Positions 4,256 to 61,919 of a DNA stretch of 64,000 nt are shown here, in pieces. The notes below the pieces were generated by a model, which ran no database searches, was not told the origin of the DNA, and was given only the letters and a program-made list of their open reading frames with translations. Within the stretch, counting starts at the first letter, position 1. The number at the start of each line of letters is the position of its first letter. The stretch spans positions 3,507 to 67,506 of the forward strand of contig LBYF01000001.1 of the NCBI GenBank assembly GCA_000996025.1. The letters are read 5' to 3'. This DNA comes from Parcubacteria group bacterium GW2011_GWA2_40_14. GTDB taxonomy: Bacteria > Patescibacteriota > Minisyncoccia > Phycocordibacterales > DATDWN01. A program made the position numbers and the translations under genes.

Positions 4256-5491
4256 TTATTTTTCTTCCTTAATTTCAACAGGAGTTTCTTCAACCTTCTC
4301 TTCTTTTATTTCACCTCGAGGATTTGTGGACTTTATATCTATTTTCCACCCAGTCAGTTTGGCCGCCAGCCGGACATTTTGTCCACCTTTGCCTATAGCC
4401 AAAGATTGCTGGTCTTCGGAAACAGTGACGCTTGCTTGTTTTTCTGTCTCATTTATTTCTACAGACAATACTTTGGCAGGGGACAGAGCATCTTCTATAA
4501 ATTTCTTAGGGGCTTCCGACCATTCAATAATATCTATTTTTTCTCCACCAAGCTCGGACATGACAGTAGAAACACGAACACCGCGCCCACCGACCATAGA
4601 GCCGACAGGGTCAATATGAGCATCTTTGGACGTCACGGCTATTTTTGTCCGAGAGCCGGCTTCACGGGCAATAGACTTTACAACCACAGTGCCATTGGCA
4701 ATCTCTGGTGTTTCTGTTTCAAAAAGTTTTTCTAAAAATTTTGGATGTGAACGAGAAAGTCGCAAAAACACTCCTTTGCTAGAGTCTTCCACTCGATAGA
4801 GATAGGCCCGGACACGCTCGCCTTGAGCAAATCGCTCTCCCGGAATCTGTTCTTCGTACGGTAATATACCTGGGGCACGACCCATATCTATGAAAATATT
4901 TCCTCGCTCCATTCTTTGTACTGTGCCAGAGACAATTTCACCTTCTTTCTTGCCATACTCACTGACAATATGTATTTTCTCGGCCTCGCGAATTTTCTGC
5001 ATGATAACTTGTTTGGCGGTTTGAGCGGCAATGCGACCATAGTCTCCTTGCGATTCCAGAGGGAAAACCATTTCATCACCCAAGGCAATATCTTTTTTGA
5101 TGCGTCGAGCATCGCTTAACATAATATGATGTTCGGGGTTATAGAGTTCAATTTCGGCATCGGGCGTCCCGGTGCCGATGTTGCCTTCTGCTCCGACGAC
5201 GTCACTTTTGGCCTTTTGGGACTTGCTGCCAAAGGCAGGTTCAACGTCGGCATCGGGACGCTCTGTCATAAAGACAGTATTTTCATCCACCACAATTTTA
5301 ACCTGAAACATTTCAGTTTTTCCGGTATTGAGGTCAAATTTTGCTCGCACAATCTGGCCTTTCTTGCCATATTCTTTTTTGTAGGCAGTTGCCAAAGCAA
5401 GCTCAATGGCTTCTATTATTTTTTCTTTTGGAATCCCGCGCTCTTCTTCAAGTTGGGTTAGCACAGAATTTACTACTTTTAGATCAATCAT
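4256..5491 (-). CDS. nusA: Transcription termination/antitermination factor NusA
   Basis: The N-terminal domain, S1 and KH regions are recognisable (MIDLKVV...QLEEERGIPKE), with a K/E-rich C-terminal tail. Confidence 0.9.
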   Translation of the reverse strand: MIDLKVVNSVLTQLEEERGIPKEKIIEAIELALATAYKKEYGKKGQIVRAKFDLNTGKTEMFQVKIVVDENTVFMTERPDADVEPAFGSKSQKAKSDVVGAEGNIGTGTPDAEIELYNPEHHIMLSDARRIKKDIALGDEMVFPLESQGDYGRIAAQTAKQVIMQKIREAEKIHIVSEYGKKEGEIVSGTVQRMERGNIFIDMGRAPGILPYEEQIPGERFAQGERVRAYLYRVEDSSKGVFLRLSRSHPKFLEKLFETETPEIANGTVVVKSIAREAGSRTKIAVTSKDAHIDPVGSMVGGRGVRVSTVMSELGGEKIDIIEWSEAPKKFIEDALSPAKVLSVEINETEKQASVTVSEDQQSLAIGKGGQNVRLAAKLTGWKIDIKSTNPRGEIKEEKVEETPVEIKEEK

Positions 5492-49129: not shown

Positions 49130-49399
49130 ATGACACAAGTAGTTATAAATTTCAAAACGGATGCTAAGCTAAAGAGCGCAGCCAAAGATGTTCTCGATGA
49201 GATGGGTCTGAATTTTTCCATTGCTTTTAACGCCTACATGAAAAAGTTGATTACTGAGAGGAGAATAGAGTTTACCACGCCAGAGATACCCAACGCTCGA
49301 CTCCGGAAAGCAATAAAAGAGGCGGATAAAGAGTATAAGAGCGGTAAGTTAAAGTTTTATACTGATATGCGCGAGATGCGCAAGTCATTAGGTGTATAA
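49130..49399 (+). CDS. RelB/DinJ-family antitoxin
   Basis: The small RHH-like protein immediately precedes a YafQ-like toxin. Confidence 0.6.
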   Translation: MTQVVINFKTDAKLKSAAKDVLDEMGLNFSIAFNAYMKKLITERRIEFTTPEIPNARLRKAIKEADKEYKSGKLKFYTDMREMRKSLGV

Positions 49400-49402
49400 A
49401 CT

Positions 49403-49663
49403 ATGCACATCGCTTTTTCTTCGAGTCTTAATAAAAAGATTAAGAAAATTCCAACAAAAATAGTTGATAAATTTTTTGAGCGATTGGAGATTTTTAAAAA
49501 GGATATATTTAGTCCAATTTTAAACAATCATAAATTGCACGCTGAATACGAAGGGTGTAGCAGTATAAATGTCACAGGTAATTTTCGAGCGATATTTAAG
49601 CATGTCGATGATAATCATGTCGTTTTTTCTGATTTAGATACTCACCCCGAACTCTACGGCTAA
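49403..49663 (+). CDS. YafQ/RelE-family mRNA interferase toxin
   Basis: The C-terminus HKLHAEYEGCSSINVTGNFRAIFKHVDDNHVVFSDLDTHPELYG parallels the YafQ C-terminus. Confidence 0.65.
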   Translation: MHIAFSSSLNKKIKKIPTKIVDKFFERLEIFKKDIFSPILNNHKLHAEYEGCSSINVTGNFRAIFKHVDDNHVVFSDLDTHPELYG

Positions 49664-50503: not shown

Positions 50504-50692
50504 ATGAACACTATGACTAAAAAAGTAAAAAAACAAAAAAATCTTTTACAGCATATTTTTAACGAAATCCGCTTATTGCGAAGCGAGGTAACTTTATTTA
50601 TGCCTGACGAAAATTTAAATGGGTATGCCCATCCATCAAGAATAAAAAAATCTTTCGAAAGAGCTTTACGTCAATACCCAAGAACAATCTAA
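50504..50692 (+). CDS. Putative antitoxin partner of the downstream RelE/ParE toxin
   Basis: The small basic ORF overlaps the toxin start (TAATG). Confidence 0.35.
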   Translation: MNTMTKKVKKQKNLLQHIFNEIRLLRSEVTLFMPDENLNGYAHPSRIKKSFERALRQYPRTI

Positions 50693-50949
50693 TGTATGTC
50701 ATTAAAACTTCTGATTTTGAAAGAGCATATAAAAGGTTACCTTTTGGCATACAAAAACTTTGTCTTATTCAAGAAGAAAGATTTGCTTTAAGTTCTCGCG
50801 ATCCAAGGTTACATATAAAAAAACTGAAAGATTTTGATGATGCCTTTTCTTTCAGGATTACTAGAAAATATCGGGCATTGTTTTATTTTCAAAATGCAGA
50901 GACTGTGATATGTTTTGATATTGACCATCGTAAAGATGTTTACAAATAG
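50692..50949 (+). CDS. RelE/ParE-family toxin
   Basis: LHIKKLK...FSFRITRKYRALFYF...VICFDIDHRKDVYK matches the RelE/ParE fold pattern. Confidence 0.7.
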   Translation: MYVIKTSDFERAYKRLPFGIQKLCLIQEERFALSSRDPRLHIKKLKDFDDAFSFRITRKYRALFYFQNAETVICFDIDHRKDVYK

Positions 50950-50985: not shown

Positions 50986-52056
50986 ATGAAAGTTGATACT
51001 TTGAAGCTGTCCAGAACTAAAGTTGCTGGTCTTACAAAAAAATTTGATTTAAATAACCCCGTATCGCGCAAGCTATATTTTGTGGCTAAGGTGGGTAAAG
51101 AGATAAAGGCTCTGCAAAAATATTTAAAATCGGGCAAGCGTTTTGTGGCATTTCTCATTGGTATAAAAAATTCCGGTAAAGGAACGTATGCAAAATTGTT
51201 TCTGGAAGCAGTAGGTCCTCTCGCCGTCCATATATCTATCGGGGATATTGTGCGCGATGTTCATACGAGCATCGAAACCCCAACTGGCAAGAAAAAATTA
51301 ATCAATTTTTTGAAGAAAAACTATCGCGGATTTCATAGTCCAGAAGAAACTATTAAAGCAATACTCGGACGCAGTCAATCAACTCTCATTACTTCTGAAC
51401 TTATTTTGGCCCTTATCAAATTTGAAATAAGCAAACATCCGAACCAGTCATTATTTATTGACGGTTTCCCTCGCGCTTTTGACCAGATTCCGTACTCACT
51501 CTTTTTGAAAGAGATTATTGGTTATCAAGGAGTGCCAGACGTTTTTGTTTTCTTTAATGTTCCAACCAGTGTGATTGACGAGCGCATTAAGACTCGGGTT
51601 ATTTGTCCTGTTTGCAAAACATCGAGGGGTTTGAAACTTTTGCCAACAACAAAAGTCGGATATGATGCAAAAAATAAAAAGTTTTATCTAGAATGTGACA
51701 ATCTTTCCTGTCCTGGCTCACGAATGATAGCGAAAGAGGGCGACGAGCTTGGTATAGAACCTATCCGTGAACGAATCGAAACTGATTCAAAAATTTCCAA
51801 AGAATTACAAAAAATTCACGGTGTGCCAAAAGTATTTCTGCGCAACGCCATTCCAGTTGTACACGCCAAAAAAATCGTAGATGATTACGAAATTACCCCT
51901 GAATATCAGTACAAACTAGATAAATCAGGTAAGGCGGTTATTGTAGAAGTACCATGGACAGTTAAAGACGACCAGGGAGTAAAATCTTACAGTCTCCTGC
52001 CCTCTGCGGTTGTCATTTCACTTATAAAGCAATTAGCCAATATTCTTACTAAATAA
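50986..52056 (+). CDS. Second adenylate/nucleoside-monophosphate kinase paralog with a zinc-ribbon LID and N- and C-terminal extensions
   Basis: The P-loop is GIKNSGKGT, followed by IDGFPRAFDQ and a LID with CPVC...CDNLSCPG (four Cys). Only the middle ~250 aa of the 356-aa ORF is the kinase core. Confidence 0.65.
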   Translation: MKVDTLKLSRTKVAGLTKKFDLNNPVSRKLYFVAKVGKEIKALQKYLKSGKRFVAFLIGIKNSGKGTYAKLFLEAVGPLAVHISIGDIVRDVHTSIETPTGKKKLINFLKKNYRGFHSPEETIKAILGRSQSTLITSELILALIKFEISKHPNQSLFIDGFPRAFDQIPYSLFLKEIIGYQGVPDVFVFFNVPTSVIDERIKTRVICPVCKTSRGLKLLPTTKVGYDAKNKKFYLECDNLSCPGSRMIAKEGDELGIEPIRERIETDSKISKELQKIHGVPKVFLRNAIPVVHAKKIVDDYEITPEYQYKLDKSGKAVIVEVPWTVKDDQGVKSYSLLPSAVVISLIKQLANILTK

Positions 52057-52589
52057 GCTTTCTCATGACAAAGTCATTAATTATCACTTAGTTCAGGAAG
52101 ACATTCTCTACGACGTTAATTTAGACGGTATATTAGAATAGAAGCTGCTTCGCGCTTTTATTTCACTCACCCTACGTCAGGCTTAAAAGTCAATAGCCCA
52201 ACTTCATCGTGTATTCCTCCAGCTGTGATACAATATAAACAGGGTTACGTATATTTTCTACCTAACCATTTTTTAGGGAGTCCAATATTTTTGTGCCACG
52301 ATGAGTAAAATTTATTATTTTGTTCTGACGAGTACAATTGCGGACACCCACCTACGAGTTTTGTAGGAGAATATTCGTAATCCGATTAAGCTATCCAGTA
52401 TTTTTGCAAAAAGAGCTGGATGTTTTAATTTATCTTATTTTCGGATTTTTTGTAATCCTGAATACACATCATCAAAATTACAAAATCGTTAATAAGTACT
52501 TATTTATAGCCATATATACTTTGTTAATTCATTGAATATATTAACTTAATCAATTTGGATTATAAACAAATTCGTGTTAAAATAGATGT

Positions 52590-52868
52590 ATGAATACACC
52601 CTTAAGTCAGTTTATAAAACAGAGGCCTCATTTGATTTGGTATACCAAAAACTATGACGGTTTGGACGCCGAATCCATCGTTGAAGCTACACTAAACTAT
52701 GGTAATTGGGACGATGTGCAGGAACTTATAAAAATTCTAGGAATGAAAAAAACCGCCCAGATTTTCCGAGAAAAATCCAAACCGGATAAATTTGGCAGAC
52801 AGAATTACGATTCTCGGGTAAAAAATTATTTTCAACTATACTTTGGTAAATATGTCAAACATGCATAA
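52590..52868 (+). CDS. Hypothetical protein, possible cognate partner of the downstream AbiEii-like toxin
   Basis: The ORF overlaps the next gene by 26 nt. No family was recognised. Confidence 0.3.
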   Translation: MNTPLSQFIKQRPHLIWYTKNYDGLDAESIVEATLNYGNWDDVQELIKILGMKKTAQIFREKSKPDKFGRQNYDSRVKNYFQLYFGKYVKHA

Positions 52869-53472
52869 AGAAATTTTTACACAAGAACAGATTAAACTTC
52901 TACCTTTGATTAGGAAATTTTCCAAGGATTTCGGTCTTGTTGGTGGGACAGCCATTGCATTGCATTTAGGTCATAGGCGCTCAATAGACTTTGACATGTT
53001 TTCCAATAAACCGTTCAATAATGTGGCTGTGCGTAGGAAAATAAAAAATACGCACAGTATTCAAAAGGTCTTCAAAGACGAAACAGGACAATACACTTTT
53101 TTTGTTAATGAGGTGCAAATGACTTTTTATCATTTTCCCTATGAGATTGATTATTCGGAAAAATTTGAAGATTATGTCAAAATACCAAATCTGCTCATTC
53201 TCGCTGCGATGAAAGCTTTTGCTCTTGGTGGAAGAAATAAATGGAAGGACTATGTTGATTTATATTTTATTCTCAATAACCGTTTTTCTGTAGATGAAAT
53301 CTCCAAAAAAGCCAAAGAACTTTTCCAGGGAGAATTTAATGAAAAAATTTTTCGAAATCAGCTAGCTTATTTTGACGATATAAATTACAAGGAAACGGTG
53401 GACTTTCTGCCGGATTTTGAAGTGAGCGATGAAACGGTAAAAAAAGCTCTGATTGATTTTAGTATTTCCTGA
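52843..53472 (+). CDS. AbiEii/AbiGii-family nucleotidyltransferase toxin (DUF1814)
   Basis: GLVGGTAIALHLGHRRSIDFDMF is the characteristic DUF1814 motif. Confidence 0.7.
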   Translation: MVNMSNMHKEIFTQEQIKLLPLIRKFSKDFGLVGGTAIALHLGHRRSIDFDMFSNKPFNNVAVRRKIKNTHSIQKVFKDETGQYTFFVNEVQMTFYHFPYEIDYSEKFEDYVKIPNLLILAAMKAFALGGRNKWKDYVDLYFILNNRFSVDEISKKAKELFQGEFNEKIFRNQLAYFDDINYKETVDFLPDFEVSDETVKKALIDFSIS

Positions 53473-53654
53473 CATTGAAAGGGATATGTATAAAAACGAT
53501 TTATTTAAGTTCACAGATTTTACTTTCGAGCCCAAACACATTCAATTTTCCCAAGAAATTTTAAGAGAATCTCGAGTGCCGAACGAGGTATGGGTCATTG
53601 CTTCCCGGAAGTTCGAGTAAAATTGGACGAACTTAAAGCTATTAAAGTCACAGT

Positions 53655-54056
53655 ATGATGTTTCAAACAAAACTTTTTAAACAAGCATTCCTTCTGCTTT
53701 TTGTTGTTGGTATTTTAAATTTGGTTGGAACAGAACTATATTTGTATTGGACACTCTGGTGGTATGACATTATTCTACATTTTCTCTCTGCTGGGGTGGT
53801 TTCTCTAGCTACCATTGTATTCTTTCGCATCTTTCTTGGAAAACGGTTGTCAGGTCAGACATTAATTAAATATGCGGTTTTTTGCGCCCTAGTAGTTGGT
53901 ATTATCTGGGAAATATATGAACTTTATTTTGAGATGACATATCTTTCTGACGGCATGATTTATGTAACAGACACAGTATCAGACCTTATTATGGACATTG
54001 CAGGTGGACTTCTCGGTTCAATATATGCAATTAGATTAGTAAAAAATAATGAGTAA
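53655..54056 (+). CDS. Small 4-TM membrane protein
   Basis: The hydrophobic ORF overlaps the downstream beta-CASP gene by 8 nt. Confidence 0.4.
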   Translation: MMFQTKLFKQAFLLLFVVGILNLVGTELYLYWTLWWYDIILHFLSAGVVSLATIVFFRIFLGKRLSGQTLIKYAVFCALVVGIIWEIYELYFEMTYLSDGMIYVTDTVSDLIMDIAGGLLGSIYAIRLVKNNE

Positions 54057-55422
54057 ATTACAAATAACTTTTTATGGCGGAGTAGGCACTGTTACAGGGG
54101 CAAATTTCTTGCTTGAAAGTAATAACACCAAGATTCTTATTGATTGTGGACTATTACAAGGCACACCCGATGGAGTGGAGGAAAATAGGAAACCATTTCC
54201 ATATGATACAAAATCAATAGATTATCTTTTTATCACCCATGCTCACATGGACCATATAGGCAGAGTGTGCAAGCTAGTCAGAGATGGTTTTAGAGGGACA
54301 ATTTATTCAACACCTGAAACAAGAGAGATTGCTAGTGTCATGATTCTTGATGCATTAAAAATAATGGACCAAAATTATCGCAATCCACAAAACGGAGTTA
54401 GCGAAAGGCCATTATATGAACTAGCTGACTATAACCAAGCGTTTTCTATATGGAAAACCATAGAATATGATACCCAAACTGAAATTAATGAAGAATTTTC
54501 AGTTTATCTGAAAGATGGTGGGCATATTCTGGGCTCTGCCATGTATGAATTTAGTTATAATGGTAAAAAAGTTGTTTTTACGGGCGATTCTGGGAATTCT
54601 CCCTCACCGCTTTTGAAAAATACAGAAAATGTGACTGATGCAGATTATCTAATCATTGACAGTGTTTATGGCGACAGAAATCATGAGCCAAAAGAGGAAA
54701 GAGACCAAAGATTTAAGCAAATTATTTTAGATACGATAGAAAAAAGAGGGGCACTAGTTATTCCAGCATTTTCTGTAGAGCGAACGCAAGTTATTTTGTA
54801 TGAATTAAATAATCTAGTTGAAGAAAAAAAGATCCCATCTGTGCCAGTTTTTCTAGATTCACCTTTGGGTTCAAAAGTGACGAACATTTACGCTAGAAGT
54901 TCAAAAGATTTTAATACTGGAGTGCAGAGAGAAATAAAAGAAGGAGATGATATTTTTAATTTTCCAAAACTGACTATCACTGCGGGTTCAGGGGATTCCA
55001 AACAGATTGTCAGTATTCCAAATCCCAAAATAATCGTGGCGGGTTCAGGAATGTCTTCTGGTGGCAGGGTATTGTGGCACGAGATGCAATACTTGCCAGA
55101 CCCAAAGAACACAGTACTTCTCATGGGCTACCAAGCACTTGGCACATTGGGTAGAAGAATACAGGACAAACCAAAGGAAGTGGAAATACATGGTCAAATC
55201 GTACCCATTCGTGCTCGTATAGAAATGATTTCCGGCTACTCATCGCACAAAGACTCTGATAGCTTGGTGGCTATGGTTGAGCAAACAAAAGCTACGTTGA
55301 AAAAAGTTTTTGTAGTCATGGGCGAACCAAAGTCATCCACATATCTGGCCCAGCGTCTGCGCGATGAGCTTCTCGTGGAAGCTATTTACCCAGAAAAAGG
55401 CAAACCTTATCTATTGGAGTAA
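54049..55422 (+). CDS. Beta-CASP / MBL-fold RNA-metabolising metallo-hydrolase (RNase J/CPSF-like)
   Basis: ITHAHMDHIG (HxHxDH), DSVYGD, and a beta-CASP middle region with an RNA-specificity C-terminus are present. Confidence 0.8.
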   Translation: MSKLQITFYGGVGTVTGANFLLESNNTKILIDCGLLQGTPDGVEENRKPFPYDTKSIDYLFITHAHMDHIGRVCKLVRDGFRGTIYSTPETREIASVMILDALKIMDQNYRNPQNGVSERPLYELADYNQAFSIWKTIEYDTQTEINEEFSVYLKDGGHILGSAMYEFSYNGKKVVFTGDSGNSPSPLLKNTENVTDADYLIIDSVYGDRNHEPKEERDQRFKQIILDTIEKRGALVIPAFSVERTQVILYELNNLVEEKKIPSVPVFLDSPLGSKVTNIYARSSKDFNTGVQREIKEGDDIFNFPKLTITAGSGDSKQIVSIPNPKIIVAGSGMSSGGRVLWHEMQYLPDPKNTVLLMGYQALGTLGRRIQDKPKEVEIHGQIVPIRARIEMISGYSSHKDSDSLVAMVEQTKATLKKVFVVMGEPKSSTYLAQRLRDELLVEAIYPEKGKPYLLE

Positions 55423-55467: not shown

Positions 55468-55656
55468 ATGAGCAAAGCTGAAAAGGAAATTGTAAAAGTG
55501 GTCAAAAAGACAATTCTCGAATCTATTCATGGGGTTTTTGCCGACCCTGATCAAGGACTGGAACTCAAAGAATCTATAAAAAGACGCCTGAAAAAAGCAT
55601 CGTTATCTCCCAAAGGATTTATTACCCTTCCATCCGCCAGAAGAAAATTTGCTTAA
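55468..55656 (+). CDS. Putative antitoxin for the downstream RelE/ParE toxin
   Basis: The 62-aa ORF has an SD (GGAGG) and sits 5 nt before the toxin gene. Confidence 0.45.
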   Translation: MSKAEKEIVKVVKKTILESIHGVFADPDQGLELKESIKRRLKKASLSPKGFITLPSARRKFA

Positions 55657-55661
55657 TTTAT

Positions 55662-55925
55662 ATGTTGCGCTGGAAAGTAATTTTTTCGCTTGACGCACAA
55701 GATGATTTGGATAATTTGTCTCGCTCAGTGCGGGATAGGGTTTTTGATAAGCTGGGATGGTTTGAAAATAATTTTGACTCAATAACACCTCTCCTTTTAA
55801 CTGGGAAGTTTAACGGTTTCTACAAGTTGCGAGTGGGTGATTGGCGGGTAATGTATCAGATTGATTGGAATAAAAATTATATTATTATTCATGTTATTGA
55901 CCACAGATCAAACATCTACAAGTAA
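55662..55925 (+). CDS. RelE/ParE-family toxin
   Basis: YKLRVGDWRVMYQIDWNKNYIIIHVIDHRSNIYK is the canonical RelE/ParE C-terminus. Confidence 0.75.
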   Translation: MLRWKVIFSLDAQDDLDNLSRSVRDRVFDKLGWFENNFDSITPLLLTGKFNGFYKLRVGDWRVMYQIDWNKNYIIIHVIDHRSNIYK

Positions 55926-59908: not shown

Positions 59909-60295
59909 ATGAAAAAAGATTTTGATGATTGGAACAAAAAGAAAAAGAAAATTCATAAAAATGATAATGCTCCATTTTGTCACGAAAGGGAGCTCTGGTG
60001 GGGTGCTCTCGGTGTGAACATAGGTTCTGAACAAGATGGTTCTGGTAAAGAAGATTCTCGTCCAATACTTGTACTGAAAGGTTTGAGTGTCCAAACATGC
60101 GTCGTTATACCTCTTACTACTTCTACAAGTATTCATACACTGCGACCATCAGTCGGAATTGTGGAAGATGAAGAAGCACATGCTTTGATGTCACAAATTA
60201 GAGTCATTGATACAAAACGACTAATCCGCAAAATAGGTTATCTTGATAAAAAGATATTTCAACAGATACGAAAAATCGCCAAAGACATGCTTTAG
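59909..60295 (+). CDS. MazF/PemK-family toxin (no adjacent antitoxin gene recognised)
   Basis: WWGALGVNIGSEQDGSGKEDSRPILVL...VVIPLTTS parallels the MazF/Kid fold motifs. Confidence 0.65.
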   Translation: MKKDFDDWNKKKKKIHKNDNAPFCHERELWWGALGVNIGSEQDGSGKEDSRPILVLKGLSVQTCVVIPLTTSTSIHTLRPSVGIVEDEEAHALMSQIRVIDTKRLIRKIGYLDKKIFQQIRKIAKDML

Positions 60296-61380: not shown

Positions 61381-61919
61381 TGTTGTGGCGCTTCACGAGT
61401 ACATTCAGCATCCTACAAAAATATAGTCGCTTCGCTTGTTATTTTGTGGAAGTGGCGATATCGAAATCGCATGCATACAGAGAATTGAAACGAATCTACA
61501 GCGCGTAGTTTATTTAATGTTTAAATCATATTGCTTGGAACAAACAAAATGCGATACAATCGAGTCTTCTTTATTTCAAAATATTTCCGAGACAAAAAAT
61601 ATTTCTAACCTCAAGTTATGTCAATCAACTCCTCGTACGAGATATGTGAGGAGCGACCGTCTCTTAGGGCTGTTGTTTAGACAGTGGCGTAAGAGAAAGC
61701 GAAGTCGTTTGCTCCATAAAATGGAGAGACGATTGCTTTAGATAAGTTTTTTACACTTAATCTTTCCAAACTGTTTTAGGAGAGCTTGGCGCTCCGCGTT
61801 GCCTGAATCAATGTCATCTATATGTCAAAACCTGTCACTCCCGAAAAATAGTAGTCAATAGCTAGTATTTAGTAGCCAGGTGAAGACAACTACTTTTCGG
61901 GAATTTTTGGTTTATCTTG

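What the first reader, a model, noticed from the sequence alone, without database searches (positions are those of the whole stretch)
53655..55422. Candidate two-gene module: small 4-TM protein translationally coupled to a beta-CASP RNase, flanked by AbiEii and RelE/ParE modules
A 133-aa four-helix membrane protein overlaps by 8 nt a 457-aa beta-CASP/MBL ribonuclease (HxHxDH, RNA-specificity domain). The pair sits between an AbiEii abortive-infection-type NTase and a RelE pair. A membrane partner for a normally cytosolic RNA-processing nuclease, in a defence-gene neighbourhood, could represent an uncharacterised membrane-tethered RNase system, possibly phage-responsive, rather than a housekeeping mRNA-decay enzyme.
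Basis: inference. Interest (0 to 1): 0.55.

Follow-up and report, generated by a model that had tools for sequence, protein, structure and literature searches.

The report
Conserved membrane-enzyme plus beta-CASP nuclease operon
The two overlapping genes are a real operon, kept together in about 70 species of tiny Parcubacteria, but it sits among housekeeping genes rather than defence genes, and the small "membrane anchor" looks like a lipid-modifying enzyme in its own right, so a membrane-tethered, phage-responsive RNase is not supported.

Summary
In detail: a 133-aa four-helix membrane ORF (53655-54056) overlaps a 457-aa MBL/beta-CASP/RMMBL nuclease (54049-55422) by 8 nt. The pair is conserved: 69 of 78 testable Parcubacteria species have the small gene directly upstream, usually overlapping or within 12 nt, and no junction exceeds about 170 nt. 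It always lies in one housekeeping block (SecY-Adk-Map-NDK / L20-L35-IF3). Relatives checked individually lack the AbiE and RelE/ParE cassettes, so these are local insertions, and PADLOC finds nothing. The "anchor" is a minimal Wok/DUF2238 Lipocone (hhalign 98.5 %) with an intact, outward-facing predicted active site. It was lost at least three times while the nuclease stayed, one homolog elsewhere stands alone, and no fusions were seen. The nuclease is TTHA0252/CPSF73-like, not RNase J, but its motif C zinc-ligand histidine is always Met or Leu, so RNA specificity is unproven. Best reading: a leaderless, translationally coupled housekeeping operon. A physical membrane-nuclease complex remains possible (about 0.25) but untested. 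A covariation-supported structured RNA absent from Rfam (window 52241-52431) accompanies the operon.

The parts
53640..53645 (+). -10-like box (TATTAA) ending 9 nt before the start codon of the membrane gene; probable promoter of a leaderless or near-leaderless bicistronic mRNA
   Evidence: Sequence (row WIN_M). A TAnWWT box lies within 23 nt upstream of the first gene in 62/72 paired and 7/10 solo loci against a 14.7 % background, most often ending 6-7 nt before the ATG. Inferred; no transcript data.
53655..54056 (+). 133-aa four-helix membrane protein: a minimal Wok/DUF2238-type Lipocone. Conserved D38, H42, W85-E86, E89, S98-D99-G100, D106-T107, S109-D110, D114, G117. N-in/C-in, with the polar cluster at the outer face.
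   Evidence: (hhalign 98.5 %, E 1.7e-15 against published Wok sequences).
54049..54056 (+). 8-nt overlap of the two ORFs (ATG of the nuclease lies inside the end of the membrane ORF); site of probable translational coupling
   Evidence: Across 72 loci, 45 overlap (-8 is commonest, 19 loci), 20 have 0-12 nt gaps, and the maximum gap is 156 nt. An SD-like motif lies upstream of the nuclease in only 3/72 loci against a 13.6 % background.
54049..55422 (+). 457-aa MBL/beta-CASP/RMMBL nuclease of the TTHA0252/CPSF73-like branch. Motifs 1-4, A and B are intact; motif C is Met424 instead of His.
   Evidence: (TTHA0252 E 1e-74; Cas14 2e-65; aCPSF1 8e-55; CPSF73 5e-38).
52241..52431 (+). About 190-nt structured RNA with its own extended -10 (TGATACAAT, 52226-52234) and intrinsic terminator. 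In other genomes it lies directly upstream of the operon; here the AbiE insertion separates it from the operon.
   Evidence: 94.2 % paired vs 81.6 % shuffled and <=50.7 % slid; 24/34 pairs with compensatory change; z = -5.06. No Rfam match.
52590..53472 (+). AbiEi-like (52590-52868, weak DUF6922) plus AbiEii (52843-53472) cassette. This is a strain-specific insertion between the RNA gene and the operon and is not part of the module.
   Evidence: No such cassette in the gene tables of relatives examined.
55468..55925 (+). Small antitoxin-like ORF plus ParE/RelE toxin. This is a strain-specific insertion between the nuclease and rplT (L20) and is not part of the module.
   Evidence: In relatives the median CASP-to-L20 gap is 80 nt.

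Best explanation
This is a vertically inherited, two-gene housekeeping operon of a large Parcubacteria (Paceibacteria-type) clade, not a defence system. A promoter whose -10 box ends a few bases before the start codon produces a leaderless mRNA. The first cistron encodes a minimal four-helix Wok/DUF2238 'Lipocone'. By homology and conserved residues it is a membrane enzyme acting on phosphate-containing lipid head groups at the outer leaflet. The second cistron has no Shine-Dalgarno sequence and overlaps the first, so it is probably translated by termination-reinitiation coupling. It encodes a cytoplasmic two-metal beta-CASP nuclease of the TTHA0252/CPSF73 branch. That enzyme is most likely a 5'-to-3' exo/endonuclease on single-stranded RNA, although the Met or Leu at the motif C zinc-ligand position leaves its metal site and its RNA-versus-DNA preference open. 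The two proteins are co-expressed, but probably have separate biochemical jobs and do not form an obligate complex. Shown: gene structure, conservation, synteny, family assignments, motif states, and the absence of a defence context in relatives. Inferred: leaderless transcription, translational coupling, both enzymatic activities, and the absence of an obligate complex.
For: Pair conserved in 69/78 testable species and in every family representative looked up inside the block. Tight junction and no SD. A -10 box immediately upstream of the first gene, also where the nuclease is alone. One constant housekeeping context, SecY-Adk-Map-NDK / L20-L35-IF3. No TA genes in the relatives whose gene tables were read, and TA cassettes scattered through the window's block. 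No PADLOC match. Nuclease distances track IF3 (partial r 0.71) and L20 (0.37). Small protein is Wok/DUF2238: hhalign 98.5 %, with all invariant Wok residues aligned to invariant residues here, and these match the His/Glu/Asp active-site pattern and outer-leaflet orientation described in PMC12419801; topology. Against an obligate complex: at least 3 separate losses of the small gene with the nuclease retained, standalone homolog P0188, no fusions in the top 150 of 3527 representatives, and short, variable cytoplasmic segments with the N-terminal LFK motif absent in distant paired members. Nuclease family. TTHA0252 is a non-essential 5'-3' exoRNase affecting global mRNA levels (PMC4229858).
Against: The junction is never broken (0/71 above about 170 nt), while NDK-MEM has >500-nt insertions in 11/67 loci and CASP-L20 in 15/59, with 4 further loci lacking L20. 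That fits functional coupling as well as mere operon mechanics. The small protein's best co-evolving partner among five genes is the nuclease (partial r 0.27, permutation p 0.001). Translational coupling is often, though not always, used for stoichiometric partners. No transcript, localisation or interaction data exist, and complex prediction was not possible. Neither enzymatic activity has been demonstrated for this family.
Confidence: 0.55

Rival explanations
1. Membrane-tethered nuclease. The small protein recruits the co-translated beta-CASP to the inner face of the membrane, giving these bacteria a membrane-localised RNA-decay enzyme analogous to RNase Y or RNase E.
For: Unbroken, mostly overlapping junction in about 70 species while both flanks accept insertions. 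Translation of the nuclease from an mRNA whose first product is inserted into the membrane would deliver it there (inference). Modest specific co-variation (partial r 0.27). N-terminal L7-F8-K9 motif conserved on the cytoplasmic side in the closer relatives. Precedents for membrane-localised RNases: RNase Y (PMC11313650, PMC4608709) and the H. pylori RNase J degradosome (PMC7492731), from the abstracts.
Against: The small protein keeps a full enzyme-like active site facing outward, which a tether would not need. Its cytoplasmic segments are about 8-14 residues and variable, and the LFK motif is absent in distant paired members. At least 3 losses occurred with the nuclease retained in place. 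There is a standalone homolog and no fusion proteins. The junction statistics are equally explained by there being no intergenic space in which to insert.
Confidence: 0.25
2. RNA-centred unit. The structured RNA next to the operon is functionally tied to the nuclease, as a substrate, regulator or scaffold, and the membrane protein is an accessory passenger.
For: The RNA accompanies the slot in 71 loci, including five without the membrane gene (L071, L080, L081, L083, L085), always on the same strand directly upstream. Covariation shows it is a real structured RNA.
Against: It has its own promoter and terminator, and the operon has its own -10 box, so no cis-regulatory link is required. In the window a 1.2-kb insertion separates them. 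Linkage may simply reflect the frozen synteny of the whole block. No functional clue comes from Rfam.
Confidence: 0.1
3. Nucleic-acid salvage. The nuclease (possibly DNA-active, given the hydrophobic motif C) degrades scavenged nucleic acid to 5'-NMPs that feed the neighbouring Adk and NDK in these auxotrophic bacteria, with the membrane protein acting in uptake or envelope remodelling.
For: Motif C is Met or Leu, as hydrophobic as the Val of DNA-type SNM1/Artemis. Adk and NDK lie immediately upstream.
Against: Adk belongs to the universal spc-operon tail, so its adjacency is uninformative (own knowledge). The overall sequence, RMMBL domain and nearest relatives are RNA enzymes. A Val-to-His swap in SNM1A did not change selectivity, so motif C is not diagnostic (PMC7458816). 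The window genome has lost NDK at this site but keeps the pair.
Confidence: 0.07
4. Phage-responsive defence system, as the reader proposed on the basis of the AbiEii and RelE neighbours.
For: Only the local neighbourhood in this one genome, plus weak PADLOC hits of the MBL core to LmuA and Avs1a (E 3e-7 to 3e-5, about 60 residues).
Against: The neighbours are absent from the relatives whose gene tables were read. The position in a core-gene block is fixed in about 80 species, whereas defence islands are variable. Nuclease distances track IF3 and L20. There is no PADLOC model for the small protein.
Confidence: 0.03

Closest known systems
TTHA0252 of Thermus thermophilus (bacterial CPSF73-like beta-CASP RNase; PDB 2DKF)
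   Same: Best solved relative (E 1e-74 over residues 6-427). Same MBL + beta-CASP + RMMBL architecture and similar length, with no extra domains. Motifs 1-4, A and B are conserved.
   Different: Motif C His is replaced by Met or Leu in the whole Parcubacteria family. Here the gene is translationally coupled to an upstream membrane-protein gene. I did not examine the gene neighbourhood of TTHA0252.
Cas14, the beta-CASP effector nuclease of type VII CRISPR-Cas
   Same: Highest NCBIfam score (401 bits, model positions 2-435) and second-best PDB group (E 2e-65). Same nuclease core.
   Different: The score is half the 800-bit cutoff. The C-terminal third of Cas14 (model 436-612) is absent. Cas14 has VHGE at motif C. 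No cas genes were seen among the ORFs listed around the pair; no dedicated CRISPR-repeat search was run.
Wok/DUF2238 family of the Lipocone superfamily (PMC12419801)
   Same: Profile-profile probability 98.5 %, E 1.7e-15 over 116 columns. D..H in H2, WExxE in H3, and DTxxD...G in H4 all align. [quoted passage not shown]
   Different: It lacks the family's N-terminal 2-TM extension and cytoplasmic tail (133 aa against about 170-230 aa). Published Wok contexts are cardiolipin and isoprenoid-lipid genes. No beta-CASP, RMMBL or CPSF context appears in the paper's text or its 37 supplementary files; the only 'CPSF' hits there are CpsF glycosyltransferases and a chance string inside a protein sequence.
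Membrane-localised RNA-decay nucleases (RNase Y via an N-terminal TM helix; RNase E via an amphipathic helix; H. pylori RNase J degradosome)
   Same: If the rival explanation holds, the outcome would be the same: a main RNase held at the membrane (PMC11313650, PMC4608709, PMC7492731).
   Different: Those enzymes carry their own membrane-binding element or localise by other means. None is known to use a separate Lipocone-type partner, and no homology exists to RNase Y or E. The RNase J model scores 20 bits against a cutoff of 400.

Membership tests
beta-CASP nucleases (MBL superfamily) | MBL motifs 1-4 (D; HxHxDH; H; D) | tested here: met
   D32, H64-x-H66-x-D68-H69, H159 and D180 are invariant in 83-84 of 84 sequences. 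Pfam Lactamase_B and Beta-Casp are above cutoff.
beta-CASP nucleases (MBL superfamily) | beta-CASP motifs A (D/E) and B (H) | tested here: met
   D/E204 and E244 are conserved; H400 is invariant.
RNA-type beta-CASP (CPSF73 / RNase J / TTHA0252 type) | Motif C histidine (zinc ligand; Val in DNA-type SNM1/Artemis) | tested here: not met
   Position 424 is Met in 72 and Leu in 11 of 83 sequences, never His. It aligns to the H of VHGE in Cas14 and INTS11. Definition from PMC3095777 and PMC7458816.
RNA-type beta-CASP (CPSF73 / RNase J / TTHA0252 type) | C-terminal RMMBL (RNA-metabolising MBL) domain | tested here: met
   PF07521 at 44.5 bits, cutoff 21.6, residues 385-448.
RNase J | Match to the RNase J family model (TIGR00649 / RnjA) | tested here: not met
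   19.9 bits against cutoff 400, and 19.4 against 820, over the N-terminal ~90 residues only.
Archaeal aCPSF1/FttA | N-terminal KH domains plus the beta-CASP core; TIGR03675 cutoff | tested here: not met
   288 bits against cutoff 580. The match starts at model position 175, so the KH region is absent.
Cas14 (type VII CRISPR) | Full-length match to NF045584, including the C-terminal domain | tested here: not met
   401 bits against cutoff 800, covering model positions 2-435 of 612 only.
Wok/DUF2238 Lipocone | Four-helix core with His (H2), Glu (H3), Asp (H4), an acidic residue at the end of H3, and a Gly cap | tested here: met
   H42, E86, E89, D106/D110 and G117 are invariant in A2 and A4 and align to Wok D89/H93/E134/E137/D154/D158/G165. 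Criteria from PMC12419801.
Wok/DUF2238 Lipocone | N-terminal 2-TM extension and H3-H4 'handle' (structural synapomorphies of Wok) | tested here: not met
   The model has only four long helices and no N-terminal extension. The H3-H4 linker (residues 92-99) is present but low-confidence, so the handle is inconclusive.
Wok/DUF2238 Lipocone | Pfam PF09997 gathering threshold | tested here: inconclusive
   The local Pfam copy (PF09997.14) gives no hit for the window protein and 17.7 bits against cutoff 26.4 for P0009. The databases' precomputed annotation (PF09997.15) lists the domain for every homolog without a weak or faint mark.
Known anti-phage defence systems (PADLOC-DB 2.0) | Match of either protein to a defence-system model | tested here: not met
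   No family for the small protein. For the nuclease there are only about 60-residue MBL-core hits (LmuA 3e-7, Avs1a 3e-5).
Physical two-protein complex (membrane-tethered nuclease) | Direct interaction or interface | not testable with these tools

The most novel reading that the evidence does not exclude
A three-part unit specific to Parcubacteria assembles at the cytoplasmic membrane into a previously unknown nucleic-acid-processing machine. Its parts are a structured ~190-nt RNA absent from Rfam, an outward-facing minimal Lipocone enzyme, and a beta-CASP nuclease that has replaced its motif C zinc ligand with Met or Leu. The machine would link envelope lipid chemistry to RNA (or scavenged DNA) degradation in these reduced, host-dependent cells.
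Probability: 0.12. Interest if true: 0.75.

Novelty: new variant of a known kind. Interest (0 to 1): 0.4.

Why it matters
Candidate-phyla-radiation bacteria have tiny genomes, and little is known about how they degrade RNA. This work defines a clade-wide operon that couples a CPSF73-like nuclease carrying an unusual metal-site substitution to a member of the recently defined Lipocone superfamily. That gene context is not reported in the Lipocone paper or its supplements, and a search for papers combining beta-CASP and Parcubacteria found none. If the two proteins do interact, it would be a new way of placing a nuclease at the membrane. If they do not, it is a clear example of how toxin-antitoxin cassettes that insert into intergenic gaps of a core-gene block can make a housekeeping operon look like a defence island. 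The neighbouring covariation-supported RNA is a new candidate RNA family worth describing in its own right.

Tried and rejected
- Defence reading: rejected after the PADLOC scan and the neighbourhood comparison.
- RNase J or aCPSF1 identity: rejected on model scores.
- Passive-anchor reading of the small protein: weakened by the Lipocone assignment.
- Generic sigma-70 and terminator scan: at background level, 17 found against 14.3 expected.
- Rfam at gathering and permissive thresholds: no family for the RNA element. The only hits there were sub-threshold snoRNA C/D-box matches, probably caused by a GAUGAG...CUGA motif.
- Mirror-tree partial correlations: too unspecific to decide on interaction.
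- The N-terminal LFK motif as a universal docking site: dropped because distant paired members lack it.
- The 100-aa P0184: a truncated gene call; the real ORF is 141 aa.
Full report
OBSERVATION. The ORF list confirms a 133-aa ORF at 53655-54056 and a 457-aa ORF at 54049-55422 on the + strand, overlapping by 8 nt. The larger protein carries Lactamase_B, Beta-Casp and RMMBL domains. The flanking AbiEii (52843-53472) and ParE/RelE (55662-55925) assignments also hold. The window is essentially identical to Parcubacteria group bacterium GW2011_GWF2_39_8b: the small protein is 100 % identical to P0001.

IS THE PAIR CONSERVED? Yes. Homologs of the small protein at 40-54 % identity all lie directly upstream of a 456-477-aa beta-CASP gene. 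A scan of one genome per species with a beta-CASP alignment returned 80 loci, all Patescibacteria, at 53-76 % identity. A profile of the small protein finds a same-strand homolog immediately upstream in 69 of 78 testable loci.

The junction is tight. Of 72 loci, 45 overlap (-8 nt is the commonest, in 19 loci), 20 have gaps of 0-12 nt, and the largest gap is 156 nt. By contrast, insertions over 500 nt occur in 11 of 67 NDK-to-MEM junctions and in 15 of 59 CASP-to-L20 junctions, and four further loci have lost L20. No MEM-to-CASP junction out of 71 exceeds about 170 nt.

The small-protein family is large: 3527 representatives at E <= 1e-3 and 1032 at E <= 1e-10. All of the top 150 are 82-206 aa, so no fusion to a nuclease is seen. 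Representatives near rank 130-150 are again paired, as are P0184 and P0172, which sit next to shorter 431-433-aa nucleases.

CONTEXT: HOUSEKEEPING, NOT DEFENCE. Marker-gene mapping shows the pair in the same block, S5-L15-SecY-Adk-Map-NDK-[pair], followed on the opposite strand by L20-L35-IF3, in nearly all ~80 species. The nine relatives whose gene tables were read carry no TA or AbiE genes there.

In the window, small cassettes occupy most gaps of this block:
- RelB plus a HigB/YafQ-like toxin at 49130-49663.
- An unclassified pair at 50504-50949.
- AbiEi/AbiEii at 52590-53472.
- A ParE/RelE pair at 55468-55925.
- A MazF/PemK toxin at 59909-60295.

The MEM-CASP junction has no such insert. 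PADLOC finds nothing for the small protein and only ~60-residue MBL-core similarities for the nuclease. Nuclease distances co-vary strongly with IF3 (partial r 0.71) and L20 (0.37), as expected for a vertically inherited core gene. The defence reading therefore rests on neighbours that are local insertions.

WHAT THE SMALL PROTEIN IS. Its alignment shows invariant polar residues: D38, H42, W85-E86, E89, S98-D99-G100, D106-T107 and S109-D110. The AlphaFold2 model is confident (pLDDT 88.5) and has four long helices. Loop charges across 70 homologs average 2.3-2.7 K+R in the N-terminus, loop 2 and C-terminus, against 0.06-0.34 in loops 1 and 3. That gives N-in/C-in, with the polar cluster at the outer face.

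The databases' precomputed annotation is PF09997 (DUF2238). My local Pfam scan is below threshold.

The Lipocone paper (PMC12419801) defines a superfamily of four-helix domains. Its inferred ancestral active site is His (H2), Glu (H3), Asp (H4), an acidic residue at the end of H3 and a capping Gly. The site faces the outer leaflet and is predicted to act on phosphate-containing lipid head groups. The paper's Wok family is partly covered by DUF2238.

I aligned 15 published Wok sequences from its supplement and compared profiles. hhalign gives 98.5 % probability and E 1.7e-15 over 116 columns, and every invariant Wok residue aligns to an invariant residue here. The window protein lacks Wok's N-terminal 2-TM extension and C-terminal tail, so I call it a minimal Wok-type Lipocone.

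The paper and its 37 supplementary files never mention a beta-CASP, RMMBL or CPSF73 context. The only 'CPSF' strings there are CpsF glycosyltransferases and a chance match inside a protein sequence. PDB fold searches were uninformative.

WHAT THE NUCLEASE IS. The best solved relative is Thermus TTHA0252 (E 1e-74), followed by Cas14 (2e-65), archaeal aCPSF1 (8e-55 and weaker) and CPSF73/INTS11 (about 1e-37). NCBIfam scores are 401 bits for Cas14 (cutoff 800), 288 for aCPSF1 (cutoff 580) and 20 for RNase J (cutoff 400). It therefore belongs to the CPSF73-like branch, in the bacterial TTHA0252-like group, and is not RNase J. TTHA0252 is a non-essential 5'-3' exoRNase that affects global mRNA levels (PMC4229858).

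Motifs 1-4, A and B are invariant in 84 sequences. The motif C position, which is VHGE in Cas14 and INTS11, is Met in 72 and Leu in 11, and never His. The motif C histidine is a zinc ligand in CPSF73. DNA-type SNM1/Artemis enzymes carry Val there and bind the second metal weakly. A Val-to-His swap in SNM1A did not change selectivity (PMC7458816, PMC3095777). The label 'RNase' is therefore probable but not secure.

OPERON ANATOMY. A TAnWWT box lies within 23 nt of the first gene in 62 of 72 paired loci and 7 of 10 solo loci, against a 14.7 % background. It most often ends 6-7 nt before the ATG, which points to a leaderless mRNA. SD-like motifs precede the nuclease in 3 of 72 loci and the small gene in 6 of 72, against a 13.6 % background. 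With the overlap, this makes termination-reinitiation coupling the likely way the nuclease is translated. This is an inference; there are no transcript data.

DOES THE NUCLEASE NEED THE SMALL PROTEIN?
- On a beta-CASP neighbour-joining tree, absence of the small gene occurs in at least three separate places: a clade of six, the L081/L083 pair, and L071 nested among carriers. In each case the nuclease stays in place with the promoter-like box directly in front.
- The one family member found outside the block, P0188, stands alone between IleRS and ArgRS.
- Cytoplasmic segments are short and variable, and the N-terminal LFK motif is absent in distant paired members.
- A mirror-tree test gives a modest MEM-CASP partial correlation (0.27, p 0.001). 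This is the highest for MEM but well below CASP-IF3.

CONCLUSION. The pair is a conserved, co-expressed housekeeping operon. An obligate membrane-nuclease complex is possible but not favoured; I put it at about 0.25. All observed pairings trace to one genomic slot, so conservation of adjacency is not independent of the strong synteny of the whole block. The unbroken junction is also explained by there being no intergenic space in which to insert.

SIDE FINDING. Between NDK and the operon, most loci carry a conserved element with its own extended -10 and terminator. In the window it lies at about 52241-52431, upstream of the AbiE insertion. On a 40-sequence alignment, a six-helix nested structure has 94.2 % of cells paired, against 81.6 % in shuffles and at most 50.7 % when partners are slid. 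24 of 34 pairs show compensatory change, and the covariation score is 0.434 against 0.211, reached by 0 of 500 shuffles. The window copy folds with z = -5.06. No Rfam family matches it. It is also present in five loci that lack the small gene, so it is linked to the slot or the nuclease rather than to the membrane protein.

Noticed in passing
window 52241-52431 (+); e.g. L001 about 4760-4960: A structured RNA of about 190 nt with its own extended -10 (TGATACAAT at 52226-52234) and intrinsic terminator, conserved in 71 Parcubacteria loci directly upstream of the operon. Six helices are supported by covariation (24/34 pairs compensatory; 0/500 shuffles reach the score). There is no Rfam match. 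It contains a GAUGAG...CUGA(C)GAG motif resembling a C/D-box or K-turn.
   Followed up: partly
window 52058-52141 (+) and 50986-52056 (+): A remnant of the NDK C-terminus (LSHDKVINYHLVQEDILYDVNLDGILE*) lies directly after a 356-aa adenylate-kinase-like ORF. NDK, present at this position in nearly all relatives, has been disrupted or replaced in this genome.
   Followed up: partly
window 49130-49663, 50504-50949, 52590-53472, 55468-55925, 59909-60295: Five small toxin-antitoxin-type cassettes or toxins within 11 kb: RelB + HigB/YafQ-like, an unclassified pair, AbiEi/AbiEii, an antitoxin-like ORF + ParE/RelE, and a MazF/PemK toxin. Four of them sit in intergenic gaps of the conserved core-gene block. 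The relatives whose gene tables were examined lack them.
   Followed up: partly
window 55318-55320 (codon 424 of the beta-CASP): The motif C zinc-ligand His of CPSF73-type enzymes is Met here, and Met (72) or Leu (11) in all 83 relatives with a residue at that position. This family-wide active-site substitution did not come up in any paper I searched or read.
   Followed up: yes
L013, L018, L022-L024, L026, L030, L038, L042, L045, L046, L050, L051 (about 100-150 nt upstream of the membrane gene): In these loci the terminator hairpin of the structured RNA is expanded by a shared insert of about 100 nt (…CTCAAATCTGGCG…CCAGATTTGGGATTTTTAATT). It may be a small mobile or repeat element.
   Followed up: no
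window 61444-61842 (-): A tmRNA gene (Rfam RF00023, 76.9 bits). tmRNA also lies downstream of the block in L010, L012, L020 and L034, which extends the conserved synteny.
   Followed up: no
loci L001-L088 (NDK genes): NDK pairwise distances correlate poorly with those of every other gene in the block (Mantel r 0.13-0.23, against 0.54-0.86 among the others). This suggests saturation, replacement or horizontal exchange of NDK.
   Followed up: no
L094 4878-5303: The public gene call for P0184 (100 aa) is truncated. The full ORF is 141 aa and includes the first transmembrane helix.
   Followed up: yes
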